From NCBI GenBank assembly GCA_028824685.1, contig JAPPCZ010000053.1, forward strand, positions 21,554 to 85,553: a stretch of DNA of 64,000 bases, in the 5' to 3' direction. The translations under genes and the position numbers were made by a program. Source of the DNA: Candidatus Poribacteria bacterium (GTDB taxonomy: Bacteria; Poribacteria; WGA-4E; WGA-3G). Numbering within the stretch: position 1 is the stretch's first letter; the number at the start of each line of letters is the position of its first letter. The notes beneath the pieces are model-generated. The model had not been told where the DNA came from. It saw only the letters and a list, made by a program, of their open reading frames with translations, and ran no database searches. Positions 8,925-15,430 of the stretch are shown piece after piece.

Positions 8925-9398
8925 CTAAGGCATGGTTGCTGTACCCTCAATATCCTGATCGTCATCAGGGTCAACACGTGCAAAAGCGTGTCCGCCAGCA
9001 TTGCAAGGGCTTACCCAATATCCTCTTGGGCATGCATAAAGGCTTTCACTATCACGTCCCTCATAGTTATCGCTCTTTGGTCCTGTTTTGCCTGTGCTGA
9101 GAAACCATGCACCTGTGTTTGGCTCCCAATTTGAACTCATCGTGGCTGTCGAAAAGTACGCACTATGGGTAACATCTGTATAAGGAATCCCCAGTTTCGT
9201 GCGGCCAGTGGATCTGGCAGCGGCAACCGTAATATGTGCGGTATGGGCATCGTTAGCACCCCATTCCCCAACATAACCGGTGCAGTCGTCATTGACTTGT
9301 TCTGTGCTGCCATTTTGATGATCCGCATCTATAGAGGACACTGTTACAGAGGCTGTGATGACAGCCATTATCGCGAGTATTCTCACAAATTTTTTCAT
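8925..9398 (-). CDS. Family B small secreted protein (B1)
   Basis: Signal peptide MKKFVRILAIMAVITASVTV. 157 aa. Lies 18 bp downstream of A1. Has the family-like end HAFARVDPDDD. Confidence 0.7.
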   Translation of the reverse strand: MKKFVRILAIMAVITASVTVSSIDADHQNGSTEQVNDDCTGYVGEWGANDAHTAHITVAAARSTGRTKLGIPYTDVTHSAYFSTATMSSNWEPNTGAWFLSTGKTGPKSDNYEGRDSESLYACPRGYWVSPCNAGGHAFARVDPDDDQDIEGTATMP

Positions 9399-9416
9399 GA
9401 CTAAAATCTCCTTTTG

Positions 9417-10184
9417 TTATTTTGTTGGAAGGTCAAGATACTCGTAAGGATCAATCCCTTCCGTTTCCCCATCTAATACACGCACGCCGGGCGGGGCTAT
9501 ACCACGACGCATCTCTTCACGAGACAATTGGACAGACGGATCACCTTTCACCCTACTGAAATGTGGGCGGACAGTGCCATCATCCTGTTCGATAGGTTCT
9601 CCATACCAGACATACAGGGTTTTGGGATAGTTGAAATAGATCTTTCCATTGCCACCCCCACTTATTCCTATCCAGTTGCTGTGCAATCCATCTTGCCACG
9701 CTTTTATCGCCACACGAGACAATAGTTCTGCACCTTTACGTGGGCGATCTTCCCACCAAGTACGTTCCCATATTGGCTTATACGGATTCCCCAAAGAATC
9801 AAGCATGCCTTCGGGCACTTTCGGATAGGGTCCGAACCCGAAGGGTGACACCCGCACCTCTGCCGTCTCTGCGGTTTGTGCAGGGGCTTCGGTTTGGGAC
9901 ACCTCTGTTTTATCTGTCTGGGCAGTTGGATCGGCTGTCGGTTTATCTGCGGTTGGCGTTGTGCTATCCGCAGAGGCTTTGGTTGACGTTGTTTCTGCCG
10001 TGTTGCTTTTCGCTTTCGCCTGTCGTTCTATTTCCGATTGGCGTAGCAGTTTTTCGGCATCGGCAGCTGCTTTTCTATCATCCGCCAATGAGTGTTGATA
10101 CCAGAAATAACACCCACCGGCAATAATAATCAGCAGTAGGACACCACCGATTATCCATTTATTGGTAAAGATGTCGCGAAACAT
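9417..10184 (-). CDS. Family A membrane-anchored protein (A1)
   Basis: MFRDIFTNKWIIGG plus a TM helix plus WYQHS. T/A/P/E-rich linker. Core EVRVSPFGFGPYPKVPEG. C-terminal GIDPYEYLDLP. RBS GGAGG. Confidence 0.8.
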   Translation of the reverse strand: MFRDIFTNKWIIGGVLLLIIIAGGCYFWYQHSLADDRKAAADAEKLLRQSEIERQAKAKSNTAETTSTKASADSTTPTADKPTADPTAQTDKTEVSQTEAPAQTAETAEVRVSPFGFGPYPKVPEGMLDSLGNPYKPIWERTWWEDRPRKGAELLSRVAIKAWQDGLHSNWIGISGGGNGKIYFNYPKTLYVWYGEPIEQDDGTVRPHFSRVKGDPSVQLSREEMRRGIAPPGVRVLDGETEGIDPYEYLDLPTK

Positions 10185-10381
10185 CTTTCACCTCCTCTGA
10201 TTGTTTGGCTACACCTGCGCAGTATGTAGCGTGATTGTTGCTATCGGGTATCCACTGCTTAAAAAAAGAGCGGGCACCCCTACAACTAACCGTTCAAGAA
10301 AGTATATGGGTACCCATAATGTGAACGGTTAGTTGTAATACTAAACAATATTATTGTATCAGAACATGCAAAAAATGTCAA
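10185..10381 (-). promoter_or_regulatory. Promoter (TTGACA-17-TACAAT, 10353-10381) and ~160-nt structured leader of the A1 cassette
   Basis: Perfect 15-bp stem 10282-10296 / 10322-10336. T7 run (A7 on the plus strand, 10261-10267). GCTACA-N11-TGTAGC hairpin at 10208-10230. Near-identical copy at 15035-15230. Confidence 0.5.
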
Positions 10382-10430
10382 CATCTTTTTTATTTGTTCT
10401 CATAATCACTGAAATTCATTATCAAGCATT

Positions 10431-10503
10431 GTAGGTCGGGTAGAGTTTACGAAACCCGACATGAATCAAACGTGTCGGGTTTCGCAAACTCTACCCGACC
10501 TAC
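10431..10503. repeat. R1 palindromic element (full pair)
   Basis: GTAGGTCGGGTAGAGTTTACGAAACCCGACA-N11-TGTCGGGTTTCGCAAACTCTACCCGACCTAC. Confidence 0.85.
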
Positions 10504-10625
10504 AAGATAAACTCACAGTAAAATCTATTAACCGATTATTTTTAAAACTGAATAACCCTGTGTTTGTTCCCATAATCACCGAAATTCATTATTAAAGTCT
10601 GCTAAGGTTTAGATGTTTTCTCCTT

Positions 10626-11314
10626 TTATTTCGGTTTCGGTAAATCTAAAAACTCGTAAGGATCAATTCCTGATTCTGACTTATCTAAAATTTTGATACC
10701 ATCGGGAATATCGCTTTCTAATAAAGGGCGTCCTAATTGACGATGAGCATTCAGTGCTTCCCCAACGGCTGCGGGGCCCGTCATGCTACGGATTTTTCTA
10801 CCGATACCAAAACCAAAGATTGTCCAACGCGGGATCCATTCAACATAGACTGTATCAGGATATGCTGGATACAACAATCCACCTGACGAGTACGTACCAT
10901 TAACTTTCTCGCCACGTTTCCACAACTCTACCCAAACACGATACGACAATTCATAATTCGGATTGTCTTTATATGGGTGATTTGGGTCATCAGCATAATA
11001 CGGGTGATCTTGTGGATCAAAAAGGTCTGGATATGGGAAGTCGGGCGGTATTTCTGGATAGGGCCCAAACCCGAACTTTGAGACCCGCACCTCTGGTGTC
11101 TCTTCAGTTTGTGCGGAGGCATCGGTTTGGGACACCTCTGTATTATCCGTTGTGGCAGTTGCATCGGCTTTCGGTTTCTCTGCGGTTGGCGTTGTGCTTT
11201 CCGCAGGGCTTCTATTAGTGAGTGTTGATACCAGAAATAATAACTACCGGCAATAATAATCAGTAGCAATAAACCACCGATTATCCATTTATTGATAAAG
11301 ATGTCGCGTAGCAT
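10626..11314 (-). pseudogene. Family A paralog (A2) disrupted by an internal deletion and frameshift; no B partner
   Basis: The N-terminal MLRDIFINKWIIGG..WYQHSL frame (10928-11314) and the C-terminal EVRVSKFGFGPYP...GIDPYEFLDLP frame (10626-11135) overlap in different frames. Relative to A1, about 103 nt net of linker are missing at about 11205-11215. Confidence 0.65.
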
Positions 11315-13666: not shown

Positions 13667-13703
13667 AAAGAAAAAAGGCAGATACCCAAAACGGATACCT
13701 GCC
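13667..13703 (-). terminator. Rho-independent terminator after B4
   Basis: Same GGCAGATACCC...GGATACCTGCC hairpin plus run as at 11881-11917. Confidence 0.7.
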
Positions 13704-13744
13704 TGTAAATAGGTTGTCCAGTCTATAAGACGGGTTTTGCTGAC

Positions 13745-14209
13745 CTAAAACTCTACGTCTACCTCCTGGGTAGAGCTATCTCTATCCGGGGTAACCTGCG
13801 CTCTGGCATGGACTCTGATACTTTGTGGACTACTAAACCAGACCTTGCCAGTATACTCATGAGTATCCGAATCATCCTCTTCATAGCGCCTGTCTGTTGC
13901 CCCCTTTCTGCTGACATACCAATAGAAGTGGCCCGAATTTACTTCACCATGATAATCTGTTTCAGAACTCGTGCAATAAGAGTATTCATTGATATTCACA
14001 GCAAACGGCCAATTACTGACATTTTTTGAAACGTTGGCTTGGGCTTGGGCAGTCTGTTCGGTATTGGCATCCTCCCAATAAATATAACCATACCCAGTTC
14101 TTTCATCAACCTGTCTCTCGTAAAAATCCGTGAAACTATAAACAATCCCTGAAATAGCAAGGATCGCACATAAAATTAGAATCGACTTCGCAAAATTTTT
14201 AATAAACAT
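13745..14209 (-). CDS. Family B small secreted protein (B4)
   Basis: Tandem duplicate of B3. Differences cluster in the C-terminal 70 residues. Confidence 0.75.
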   Translation of the reverse strand: MFIKNFAKSILILCAILAISGIVYSFTDFYERQVDERTGYGYIYWEDANTEQTAQAQANVSKNVSNWPFAVNINEYSYCTSSETDYHGEVNSGHFYWYVSRKGATDRRYEEDDSDTHEYTGKVWFSSPQSIRVHARAQVTPDRDSSTQEVDVEF

Positions 14210-14239
14210 AGTTAAATGCTCCTTATATTATTCATTGTG

Positions 14240-15034
14240 TTATGGATTGAGCCCCAGATATTCGAACGGATCAATCCCACCTTCAGAATGAAGTATTACC
14301 TCAATATCAGAGGGAATATCTACCTCGGTCATAAGAGTAGGAACACGTCCACCGAGTCTCGCAATATTGTTGGCTCTAACACGGTTCGTTGCGGATGAAG
14401 CACCACTCAGGCGGGTGATATACCGGATCCGATTGCCATCCTCATCCACCGTTTTATCCCAAGTGACATAAACAACATTCGAATAGTTGAGAAAAACTCT
14501 ATTATACTCAGAATAAAAACCCGCACCGACAATACCTCTTTCGCCCTCTTCTTCCCATTTTTTTATCCGAACACGACTTATCAGTTCAGATTCTCGACTG
14601 CCTTTAATGTGCGGATAAAGCTCTGGGTCTGCCCAGAATGGCTCATAATCCATACCTTCCGGCACTTCTGGGAAGGGCCCGAATCCGAATGCCGACACAG
14701 CTACTTCTACCGCGTCCGATTTTTCTGCGGGCAGGGCAGTTTGCTGGGGCACCTCTGTTTCGGTCTGGCGTTCAGGCACAGGTGCGACTTCTTCAGTGTC
14801 AGTTGACGGTCTCTCTGCGGATGGCGTTTCGCTTTCCGCAGGGGCTACTTCTTGAGTGGATTGCTTTTCTGACGCAGCACGCGCACGTTCTTGGATGGCA
14901 TGTCTATTTTGCATCACTTGCCGTTTGAAATTTGCCATATCTCTTTCCAGCAATATGTGAAACGCAATAGCACCAAGAATGAGCAGTAATACGCCACCGA
15001 TTATCCATTTATTGGTAAAGATGTCGCGTATCAT
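14240..15034 (-). CDS. Family A membrane-anchored protein (A4)
   Basis: Tandem duplicate of A3 at an offset of 1786 bp. The last ~91 codons are identical and the linker has diverged. Confidence 0.8.
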   Translation of the reverse strand: MIRDIFTNKWIIGGVLLLILGAIAFHILLERDMANFKRQVMQNRHAIQERARAASEKQSTQEVAPAESETPSAERPSTDTEEVAPVPERQTETEVPQQTALPAEKSDAVEVAVSAFGFGPFPEVPEGMDYEPFWADPELYPHIKGSRESELISRVRIKKWEEEGERGIVGAGFYSEYNRVFLNYSNVVYVTWDKTVDEDGNRIRYITRLSGASSATNRVRANNIARLGGRVPTLMTEVDIPSDIEVILHSEGGIDPFEYLGLNP

Positions 15035-15230
15035 CTTACACCTCCTCTGATTGTTTGGCTACACTTGCGCAGTGTGTAGCGTGATTGTTGCTATCGGGTA
15101 TCCACTGCTTAAAAAAAAGCGGGCACCCCTACAACTAACCGTTCAAGAAAGTATATGGGTACCCATAATGTGAACGGTTAGTTGTAATACTAAACAATAT
15201 TATTGTATCAGAACATGCAAAAAATGTCAA
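15035..15230 (-). promoter_or_regulatory. Promoter (TTGACA-17-TACAAT, 15202-15230) and structured leader of the A4 cassette
   Basis: Near-identical to 10185-10381, including the 15-bp stem and the T run. Confidence 0.5.
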
Positions 15231-15430
15231 CATCTTTTTTTGTTTGTTCTCATAATCAAGGTATGTGCGTTTGTAGTCGCGCAATTCATAGCCTCTTGTT
15301 GGAGGGAATCTTGTAAGCCCGATTTGCTGCTGTAGGAGCGATCTCCGAATCGCGACACATTCCCAATCGTCGCGAGCTGGAGCTCGCTCCTACAGAATGT
15401 AAGAGGCGCGGTTACAAAACGCGCCTCTTT

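What the first reader, a model, noticed from the sequence alone, without database searches (positions are those of the whole stretch)
8925..15250. Multi-copy two-gene cassettes: conserved membrane-anchored protein (family A) plus hypervariable small secreted protein (family B)
Four cassettes lie head to tail on the minus strand: A1/B1, A2 (frameshifted, no B), A3/B3 and A4/B4. A fifth is on the plus strand (60947-62253). There is also a lipoprotein-anchored A variant (31417-32031, followed by an overlapping 98-aa membrane protein) and a solitary B-like gene (59233-59724). A proteins share M-x-RDIFTNKWIIGG, a TM helix, WYQH, a variable T/P/E/A/Q-rich linker, the core EVRVSPFGFGPYP-x-(V/I)P and a C-terminal GIDP(Y/F)E(Y/F)L. 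B proteins are 154-169 aa with a signal peptide and almost no mutual identity except B3/B4. Each B sits 18-33 bp after its A gene, and B1, B3 and B4 are followed by the same terminator hairpin. I recognise neither family. A fixed anchor with a fast-evolving secreted partner in many copies resembles polymorphic effector or surface-variation loci.
Basis: partly seen in the sequence, partly recalled or inferred. Interest (0 to 1): 0.8.

Follow-up and report, generated by a model that had tools for sequence, protein, structure and literature searches.

The report
Poribacteria membrane-tethered protein plus secreted partner cassettes
A sponge-symbiont (Candidatus Poribacteria) genome carries many copies of an undescribed two-gene operon, in which a membrane-tethered protein with a confidently predicted domain matching no known structure is followed by a fast-diverging secreted protein; its function is unknown.

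Summary
The cassettes are real. Six family-A genes lie in the window: four in tandem, one of them a pseudogene, plus two elsewhere. Four are followed 18-32 bp later by a signal-peptide ORF (B) that has its own ribosome-binding site.

Family A is confined to Candidatus Poribacteria. It has 571 clusters at 50% identity among 1.84 billion representatives. It matches nothing in Pfam, NCBIfam, PADLOC, PHROGs or PDB sequences. Its C-domain folds confidently (pLDDT 92.6) with no Foldseek match in PDB or BFVD.

The A-B adjacency holds across Poribacteria: 61 of 105 A genes have such a neighbour, against 12 of 227 control genes. B diverges about twice as fast as A's domain. B is not one demonstrable family.

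The "solitary B" at 59233-59724 is not a B. Its homologues always pair with a PD40 beta-propeller gene.

The cassettes are recombination mosaics with a shared 5' module. Some homologous loci use sigma-54 promoters and have a nearby activator gene.

My best reading is an envelope module in which a constant tethered docking domain holds a variable exported partner. This is inferred, not shown. Toxin/immunity, TonB-like and outer-membrane-barrel readings were tested and not supported.

The parts
9417..10184 (-). A1. 255 aa with an N-terminal anchor (MFRDIFTNKW + hydrophobic stretch ending AGGC), a T/P/E/A/Q-rich linker, and a C-domain covering residues ~108-255.
   Evidence: AF2 model of residues 104-255 has pLDDT 92.6
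8925..9398 (-). B1. 157 aa with a signal peptide. It starts 18 bp after A1 and has an AAGGAG ribosome-binding site.
   Evidence: orthologues lie after A1 orthologues in L003, L004 and L005
8872..8898 (-). Intrinsic-terminator-like hairpin plus T-run after B1.
10185..10381 (-). A1 5' module. It holds a TTGACA-17-TACAAT promoter-like site (10353-10381) and a conserved leader of ~100 nt with two hairpins. The promoter part is 99% identical to the module upstream of A4.
   Evidence: (D1, D6)
10626..11314 (-). A2 pseudogene. A 103-nt deletion relative to A1 after about codon 35 shifts the frame. The 5' half is A1-like and the C-domain is closest to A6. No B follows.
   Evidence: (D5)
12454..13248 (-). 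A3, 264 aa. The anchor has no Cys.
11959..12423 (-). B3. 154 aa with a signal peptide, 30 bp after A3.
   Evidence: orthologue in L002 is 71% identical with dN/dS 0.80
11890..11918 (-). Terminator hairpin after B3, identical to the one after B4.
14240..15034 (-). A4. 264 aa, 89% identical to A3. Part of a 1786-bp tandem duplication.
   Evidence: (D2-D4)
13745..14209 (-). B4. 154 aa, 93% identical to B3.
13676..13704 (-). Terminator hairpin after B4.
15035..15230 (-). A4 5' module: promoter-like site at 15202-15230 plus the conserved leader.
60947..61711 (+). A5, 254 aa.
61744..62253 (+). B5. 169 aa with a signal peptide, 32 bp after A5. No detectable similarity to B1/B3/B4.
   Evidence: orthologue in L053 is 75% identical, lies after an A gene, and has dN/dS 0.25
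31417..32031 (+). A6. 204 aa, a lipobox (LFGC) variant of family A.
   Evidence: orthologues P0016 and P0035
32028..32324 (+). 98-aa membrane protein overlapping the A6 stop by 4 bp. It is not B-like. The pairing is kept in the P0016 orthologue.

Best explanation
This is a bicistronic operon restricted to Candidatus Poribacteria. It duplicates in tandem and recombines.

Gene A encodes a protein tethered to the cytoplasmic membrane by a signal-anchor helix or, in some members, a lipid. A flexible low-complexity linker of about 70-80 residues holds a conserved domain of about 150 residues outside the cytoplasm. That domain has a predicted fold with no match among solved or viral structures.

Gene B is co-transcribed. 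No terminator lies between A and B, B has its own ribosome-binding site, and a shared terminator follows it. B is exported by a Sec-type signal peptide.

I propose that the constant A domain is the membrane-proximal docking or handling partner of the variable, beta-rich B protein. Together they would form an envelope or surface module whose exposed component (B) diversifies.

New variants arise in two ways: by duplication of whole cassettes, and by recombination through the conserved 5' module (promoter, leader and anchor).

Expression is regulated. The window copies use a sigma-70-type promoter with a conserved structured leader. A subset of homologous loci use sigma-54 promoters and carry an activator gene next door.

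Shown: gene structure, export signals, synteny, relative divergence rates, mosaicism, promoter types.
Inferred: physical A-B interaction, surface exposure, and the biological role (interaction with the sponge host, with phages or with neighbouring cells).
For: Taxonomic range:
- Family A is found only in Poribacteria. All named hits are Poribacteria, and 255 confirmed stretches occur in species-representative genomes. There are several loci per genome and up to 6 copies per 8-kb locus.
- An exhaustive profile search found 571 clusters at 50% identity with a uniform ~250-aa architecture.

Adjacency:
- 61 of 105 A genes are followed within -10 to +50 bp by an ORF of at least 90 aa with a hydrophobic N-terminus. 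Only 12 of 227 control genes are (odds ratio 25, p = 5e-26).

Location outside the cytoplasm:
- Lipobox variants exist (A6, P0016, P0035).
- Cys24/25 sits in a lipobox-like context in 96 of 223 members.
- B has Sec signal peptides, and one B carries an fn3 domain.

Domain A is a real folded unit: pLDDT 92.6, pTM 0.84.

Divergence:
- B falls to noise-level identity while the A C-domain is still 30-60% identical. At 60-70% C-domain identity B is 0.34; at 70-80% it is 0.45; above 80% it is 0.73.
- dN/dS for A is 0.22-0.34 and for B is 0.25-0.80.

Mosaicism:
- The promoter module is 99% identical between A1 and A4, whose proteins are about 34% identical.
- The leader plus N-terminus is 80-91% nt identical in all four tandem copies.
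- A2 is a hybrid of A1-like and A6-like parts.
- The same N-terminal module is fused to a different C-domain in L003:711-1664, again followed by a secreted ORF.

Regulation:
- Nine A genes carry a TGGCAC-N5-TTGCW motif upstream. Eight of those loci also hold a Sigma54_activat/HTH_8 gene.
Against: - No direct evidence exists that A and B bind each other.
- 41% of A genes have no B-type neighbour. The lipobox variants have a different partner or none.
- B could not be folded confidently (pLDDT 43.6).
- B groups are not demonstrably homologous to one another (best hhalign probability 59%). 'One partner class' may therefore be several unrelated proteins.
- Invariant S, E, R and Y residues in A's domain would also fit an enzyme rather than a docking domain.
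- No expression data could be consulted.
Confidence: 0.45

Rival explanations
1. Toxin/immunity or effector/immunity pair. In this reading B is an exported toxin or effector and A is a membrane-tethered periplasmic immunity protein, or the reverse. Tandem arrays would arise as in polymorphic-toxin loci.
For: - The genes are tightly coupled, multi-copy and arranged in tandem arrays.
- One partner evolves faster.
- Mosaic recombination occurs through a conserved 5' region.
- Pseudogenised copies exist.

Against: - No toxin, trafficking or immunity domain was found in Pfam, NCBIfam or PADLOC.
- A's C-domain is a single homologous family: 1986 of 2016 pairs are detectable by BLAST. It is not a set of interchangeable unrelated domains.
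- No secretion-system genes recur in the flanks.
- Some B proteins carry fn3 or Ig-like C-terminal modules typical of structural or adhesive proteins.
Confidence: 0.12
2. B is a small outer-membrane beta-barrel of the OmpX/Opa type. A is an inner-membrane-anchored, periplasm-spanning partner that contacts it, with a TonB/TolA/TamB-like layout.
For: - A has an anchor, a Pro/Thr/Glu-rich linker and a C-terminal globular domain.
- The B1 model is all-beta with long hairpins.
- B3, B4 and relatives end in an alternating hydrophobic stretch with a terminal F or W (VEVDVEF, IVIW), which resembles an outer-membrane beta-signal.
Against: - Only 14 of 64 B proteins end in F, W or Y. B1 and B5 do not.
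- There are no Pfam outer-membrane protein hits.
- The B model is low-confidence.
- A's domain matches no TonB, TolA or any other PDB fold.
- No ExbBD/TolQR genes recur nearby.
Confidence: 0.12
3. A works on its own, for example as an envelope enzyme or sensor. The downstream secreted ORFs are unrelated passengers that share an operon because both are envelope genes.
For: - 41% of A genes lack a B.
- B groups are not demonstrably homologous.
- A's domain has invariant S, E and R residues.
- The lipobox variants pair with a different small membrane protein or with none.
Against: - The adjacency enrichment is 25-fold and persists across deep divergence of A.
- A and B duplicate together as units.
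- The short spacers are conserved.
Confidence: 0.2
4. The module is an envelope-stress or signalling unit under sigma-54 control, analogous to Psp-type systems whose activator lacks a sensory domain.
For: - Sigma-54 promoters lie upstream of 9 A genes, with an activator gene nearby in 8 of those loci.
- The L009 activator has no N-terminal sensory domain.

Against: - Only about 10 of 80 loci have the activator.
- The window copies have sigma-70-type promoters and no sigma-54 motif nearby.
- No PspA/B/C-like proteins were detected.
- The high copy number and diversification of B are not expected for a stress sensor.
Confidence: 0.06

Closest known systems
TonB / TolA-type periplasm-spanning proteins
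   Same: Both have a short cytoplasmic N-terminus, a single membrane anchor whose sequence is conserved, a low-complexity Pro/Thr/Glu-rich spacer and a small C-terminal globular domain.
   Different: The C-domain has no TonB_C or TolA Pfam match and no Foldseek match to any PDB chain. No ExbBD/TolQR genes recur nearby. Some family members are lipobox-anchored. The downstream partner is a small secreted protein.
Polymorphic toxin / immunity cassette arrays (CDI, Rhs, orphan CT-immunity modules)
   Same: Both show tandem two-gene modules, recombination through a conserved upstream segment, one rapidly diverging partner and pseudogenised copies.
   Different: There is no delivery domain and no toxin domain. 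The 'variable' part of A is one conserved family. The downstream gene has a signal peptide and in some cases adhesin-type modules.
Multi-copy variable surface protein loci (Neisseria opa / pilE-pilS type)
   Same: Both have many paralogous copies per genome, mosaic gene conversion and exported beta-rich products that diverge fast.
   Different: No phase-variable repeats or silent-copy architecture were seen. Each copy has its own promoter or leader. A conserved membrane-tethered partner gene is obligatorily upstream. Surface exposure is unproven.
Sigma-54 regulons with sensory-domain-less activators (PspF / HrpRS type)
   Same: A subset of homologous loci has a canonical -24/-12 promoter in front of A. 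These loci also carry an adjacent Sigma54_activat-HTH_8 gene without an N-terminal sensor.
   Different: This applies to only about 10% of the loci and to none in this window. No PspA- or HrpV-like negative regulator was identified.

Membership tests
TonB family | C-terminal TonB_C domain (Pfam PF03544) or its fold | tested here: not met
   No Pfam hit in 6 window copies or in 115 homologues. Best Foldseek PDB hit has E = 1.0 and TM <= 0.18.
TonB family | N-terminal anchor plus Pro-rich periplasmic spacer | tested here: met
   The sequence shows an anchor plus a T/P/E/A/Q-rich linker of ~70-80 aa.
TonB family | Partner ExbB/ExbD (or TolQ/TolR) genes | tested here: not met
   No recurrent neighbour family of that kind appears in 80 loci. 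None was seen among the window ORFs scanned.
Polymorphic toxin systems (CDI/Rhs-like) | Unrelated, interchangeable C-terminal toxin domains on a conserved N-terminal body | tested here: not met
   A C-domains form one family: 1986 of 2016 pairs are BLAST-detectable, with 15 invariant columns in the alignment of 20 trimmed C-domains. Only one alternative C-domain was seen (L003:711-1664).
Polymorphic toxin systems (CDI/Rhs-like) | Recognisable toxin, trafficking or immunity domains | tested here: not met
   Pfam, NCBIfam and PADLOC gave nothing.
Polymorphic toxin systems (CDI/Rhs-like) | Toxicity of one partner neutralised by the cognate other | not testable with these tools
   Needs expression assays.
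Small outer-membrane beta-barrels (OmpX/Ail/Opa) for B | C-terminal beta-signal ending in an aromatic residue | tested here: inconclusive
   Present in B3, B4 and relatives (…VEVDVEF, …IVIW). Absent in B1, B5 and most others: 14 of 64 end in F, W or Y.
Small outer-membrane beta-barrels (OmpX/Ail/Opa) for B | 8-stranded barrel fold or outer-membrane protein Pfam family | tested here: inconclusive
   No Pfam hit. The AF2 model is all-beta but has pLDDT 43.6.
Bacterial lipoproteins (for A) | Lipobox [LVI][ASTVI][GAS]C at the end of a signal peptide | tested here: inconclusive
   A6 has the classical LFGC followed by polar residues. A1, A2-type and A5 have AG(G/A)C, but hydrophobic/aromatic YFWY follows. 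A3 and A4 have no Cys. Across the family 96 of 223 members fit the pattern.
Anti-phage defence systems (PADLOC) / phage proteins (PHROGs) | Profile match to a known defence or phage family | tested here: not met

The most novel reading that the evidence does not exclude
The A-B cassette is a previously unrecognised class of recombining envelope or surface-variation module specific to sponge-symbiotic Poribacteria. A constant docking domain with a new fold, tethered to the membrane, presents an exchangeable, rapidly diversifying exported protein. That protein would mediate recognition by, or evasion of, the sponge host, phages or neighbouring cells. Variant generation would run through the conserved 5' recombination handle.
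Probability: 0.25. Interest if true: 0.8.

Novelty: categorically new. Interest (0 to 1): 0.6.

Why it matters
Poribacteria are dominant, uncultured sponge symbionts. How they persist inside a filter-feeding, phagocytic host is usually discussed in terms of eukaryote-like repeat proteins.

This finding adds a phylum-specific, highly expanded two-gene module. It has hundreds of sequence clusters and several loci per genome. It encodes envelope proteins with no known relatives. One is a confidently predicted domain with no match in PDB or BFVD. The other is a partner diverging about twice as fast.

If the pair is a surface-variation or recognition device, it gives a concrete, testable handle on symbiont-host or symbiont-phage interaction in sponges. 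If not, it still defines a new domain family and a conserved operon worth a family entry and a structure.

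Tried and rejected
- Pfam, NCBIfam, PADLOC and PHROGs scans of all A and B copies gave only sub-threshold hits to the low-complexity linker or the signal peptide. 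A Pfam scan of 115 homologues gave nothing.
- PDB sequence-profile searches gave nothing.
- Foldseek of the A model against PDB and BFVD gave nothing better than E = 0.6.
- AF2 of mature B1 with a 14-sequence alignment gave pLDDT 43.6. The model is unusable, so I ran no further search on it.
- Profile-profile comparison of ten B groups reached at most 59% probability, mostly over the signal peptide. I therefore rejected the idea that B is one superfamily as unproven.
- The first hhalign script timed out and printed nothing.
- Rfam found no family in the conserved leader or in the intergenic repeats. The four leaders are too similar to test covariation.
- A metagenome scan for B6 relatives found nothing. 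A protein search then found five.
- Three literature searches found no description of this family.
- Sigma-54 motifs are absent near the window cassettes.
- I rejected the idea that the ORFs are non-coding. A and B orthologues keep intact frames with dN/dS below 1.

Full report
OBSERVATION

On the minus strand:
- A4 at 14240-15034 and B4 at 13745-14209
- A3 at 12454-13248 and B3 at 11959-12423
- A2 at 10626-11314, split over two frames
- A1 at 9417-10184 and B1 at 8925-9398

On the plus strand:
- A5 at 60947-61711 and B5 at 61744-62253
- A6 at 31417-32031, with an overlapping 98-aa ORF at 32028-32324
- the ORF at 59233-59724

A tblastn of every copy against the window shows that all six A copies are homologous (E 1e-8 to 1e-38). 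No further copies exist in the window. The A alignment confirms the motifs V.VS.(F/H)GFGP(Y/F)P..P, EL..RV and G(I/F)DP(Y/F)..L.

B3 and B4 are 93% identical. B1 is a distant homologue of them (E 1e-7). B5 and the ORF at 59233 give no hit to any other B.

The A-B spacers are 18, 30, 30 and 32 bp. Each B has an AAGGAG-type ribosome-binding site 7-9 nt upstream. The same 12-13-bp hairpin plus T-run follows B1, B3 and B4.

A2 carries a 103-nt deletion relative to A1 just after the anchor. This shifts the frame.

WHAT THE ORGANISM IS

A profile of the A C-domains finds 623 protein clusters at 90% identity. Every hit that carries a name is 'hypothetical protein [Candidatus Poribacteria bacterium]'.

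In one genome per GTDB species, 255 stretches encode a relative. The best 80 are all in Poribacteria MAGs, or in unnamed MAGs submitted only as 'uncultured bacterium'.

The window context fits this phylum. It holds many WD40, TPR and PD40 proteins, an ECF sigma factor, an IS605 TnpB and a YhgA-like transposase.

FAMILY A

An exhaustive HMM search of 1.84 billion representatives gives 571 clusters at 50% identity with E <= 1e-3, of which 493 have E <= 1e-10. Among the best 150 listed, nearly all are about 240-270 aa with the domain at the C-terminus.

None of the six window copies or 115 homologues matches a Pfam family. NCBIfam, PADLOC, PHROGs and PDB sequences also give nothing.

AlphaFold2 on residues 104-255 of A1, with a 115-sequence alignment, gives pLDDT 92.6 and pTM 0.84. 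The model is an alpha/beta domain with a long helix and a mainly antiparallel sheet. Foldseek finds nothing in the PDB (best E = 1.0, TM <= 0.18) or in BFVD (best E = 0.6). AlphaFold DB was not available. 'No known fold' therefore means none among solved or viral structures.

Invariant positions are S, G, G, P and P in the N-terminal motif, then E, R and a C-terminal L.

ANCHOR AND TOPOLOGY

The N-terminus is a short basic segment followed by about 20 hydrophobic residues.

- A6 and its relatives P0016 and P0035 have a classical lipobox (LFGC followed by polar residues).
- In 96 of 223 full-length family members, a Cys at position 24/25 sits in a context that satisfies the PROSITE lipoprotein rule as I recall it. 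It is followed by aromatic residues (CYFWYQH).
- 127 members, including A3 and A4, have no Cys.

The anchor chemistry therefore varies while tethering is constant. Together with the lipobox variants, this places the C-domain outside the cytoplasm. This is an inference, not a test.

THE DOWNSTREAM GENE

I located 122 A places in the 80 loci fetched up to (the 78 from the genome scan plus L001 and L002) and the window. Of the 110 full-length A genes with enough downstream sequence, 65 are followed within -10 to +50 bp by an ORF of at least 90 aa with a hydrophobic N-terminus. A separate, independently called ORF set from the 80 loci without the window gives 61 of 105 A genes against 12 of 227 non-A genes in the same loci. 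That is an odds ratio of 25 with p = 5e-26.

Orthologues of B1, B3/B4 and B5 lie directly after orthologues of A1, A3/A4 and A5 in other genomes.

B is coding. Orthologues keep intact frames, with dN/dS of 0.25 for B5, 0.38 for B3 versus B4, and 0.73-0.80 for B3/B4 versus L002. A gives 0.22-0.34 in the same comparisons.

B diverges faster than A:
- Nearly all A pairs are BLAST-detectable (1986 of 2016) against 109 of 2016 B pairs.
- Mature-B identity is at the shuffled-sequence level (0.23) while the A C-domain is still 30-60% identical. It reaches 0.34, 0.45 and 0.73 only at C-domain identities of 60-70%, 70-80% and above 80%.
- A profile search with the B1/B3 group finds only 13 clusters in 5.8 billion proteins.
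- Ten B groups compared profile-to-profile reach at most 59% probability.

So B is a positional class of exported proteins. Either it has diverged beyond recognition or it has several origins.

Some B proteins carry extra C-terminal modules, including an fn3 domain. This fits an extracytoplasmic or surface role. AF2 could not fold B1 (pLDDT 43.6, all-beta).

THE 'SOLITARY B'

The ORF at 59233-59724 has five homologous clusters. In every locus I read, including the 36-38% identical relatives, it is followed about 90-100 bp later by a PD40/Tricorn-type beta-propeller gene. This is the same arrangement as in the window, where that gene lies at 59812-60867. No A gene is nearby in any of these loci. 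It belongs to a different conserved pair.

MOSAICISM AND REGULATION

- A3-B3 and A4-B4 form a 1786-bp tandem duplication at 88-93% nt identity.
- All four tandem A genes share a 191-nt block at 80-91% identity. It covers about 95 nt of leader and the first 96 coding nt. The proteins are otherwise about 35% identical.
- The promoter-like module (TTGACA-17-TACAAT with an upstream TG) is 99% identical upstream of A1 and A4 only.
- A2 is A1-like up to the start of the C-domain. Its C-domain is closest to A6.
- In L003, the same N-terminal module is joined to an unrelated C-terminal region. A secreted ORF follows it there too.

These patterns require recombination between cassettes. Four of about 120 copies are frameshifted.

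In eight other loci, nine A genes have a canonical TGGCAC-N5-TTGCW sequence upstream. Those loci also carry a Sigma54_activat-AAA_lid-HTH_8 activator gene. In L009 the AAA domain starts at residue 35, so there is no sensory domain. The window cassettes have no such motif.

INTERPRETATION

The evidence supports a membrane-tethered constant protein and a co-expressed, exported, faster-diverging partner, propagated as a recombining multi-copy cassette. I favour a docking or handling role of A for B in the envelope (0.45).

Alternatives:
- A works alone with passenger ORFs (0.2). In its favour, 41% of A genes lack a B and the B groups are not demonstrably homologous.
- Toxin/immunity (0.12). There is no supporting domain, A is a single family, and some B proteins look adhesin-like.
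- Outer-membrane barrel plus a TonB-like partner (0.12). The beta-signal-like C-terminus is limited to the B3/B4 group.
- A sigma-54 stress module (0.06).

None can be settled without interaction, localisation or expression data.

NOVELTY

I found no description in the literature searched. There is no family entry and no structural neighbour. The layout resembles TonB-type proteins. The genetics resemble polymorphic-cassette or multi-copy surface-protein loci. The defining features of those families were tested and not met.

Noticed in passing
window 59233-59724 and 59812-60867: A small signal-peptide protein is followed by a PD40/Tricorn-type beta-propeller protein. This pair is conserved in every homologous locus read, down to 36% identity, independently of family A.
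   Followed up: yes
window 37443-38132 + 38129-39913 (+) and 46945-47691 + 44994-46901 (-): A second paralogous two-gene cassette. The first gene encodes a ~230-250-aa protein with the anchor MNRK..WGIAAL.IILIAAGGFMYWQW, a linker and its own C-domain. It is followed (4-bp overlap in one copy, 43-bp spacer in the other) by a ~600-aa protein with no Pfam match. Each cassette sits next to a WD40 gene.
   Followed up: partly
window 8536-8776, 11533-11788, 13482-13540, 15404-15607, also 34699, 42460, 48354-48530: A MITE/REP-like palindromic element rich in CGCGGATT units flanks and intersperses the cassette array. An 18-mer from it occurs 11 times in the window, against 0.09 expected.
   Followed up: partly
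window 10393-10595: A 33-nt-arm, 97% complementary hairpin (10429-10505) is bracketed by 33-nt direct repeats (10393-10425 and 10563-10595). It lies between the A2 pseudogene and the A1 promoter. A related arm occurs at 8487-8511.
   Followed up: no
L009, L020, L022, L039, L043, L065, L066, L072 (upstream of A genes): Canonical sigma-54 promoters (TGGCAC-N5-TTGCW) lie in front of A genes, in loci that also carry a Sigma54_activat-HTH_8 activator gene. No recognisable sensory domain was seen in those scanned: in L009 the AAA domain starts at residue 35, while two others have an unassigned N-terminal stretch of about 110-120 aa.
   Followed up: partly
L003:711-1664 and 1661-2311: The family-A N-terminal module (MIRDIITNKWFIGA...CYLWYQH) is fused to an unrelated C-terminal region (317 aa, no Pfam). 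A 216-aa signal-peptide ORF follows with a 4-bp overlap.
   Followed up: partly
window 32853-34649: An ECF-type sigma factor (regions 2 and 4) with a ~400-aa C-terminal extension lies about 530 bp downstream of the A6 / 98-aa pair.
   Followed up: no
whole window; L085: The window's own proteins are recorded on a 141,653-bp contig. The B6 orthologue lies on a 143,360-bp contig whose name ends in '_c' (possibly circular). Its name-encoded coverage (2421x) is close to that of the 5.24-Mb contig of the same sample (2075x). The window may come from a large extrachromosomal replicon.
   Followed up: no
window 5925-7004, 21810-23060, 62718-63998: Three further genes: a YhgA-like transposase, an IS605 OrfB/TnpB (Cas12f-like TNB domain), and an N6/N4 DNA methylase fused to an HNH nuclease.
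   Followed up: no
window 55582-55597: A sigma-54-type motif TGGCACACAAATTGCA lies 47 nt upstream of the ORF at 55644-56237. The surrounding region has unusually low GC (31-35% over 54-58 kb).
   Followed up: no
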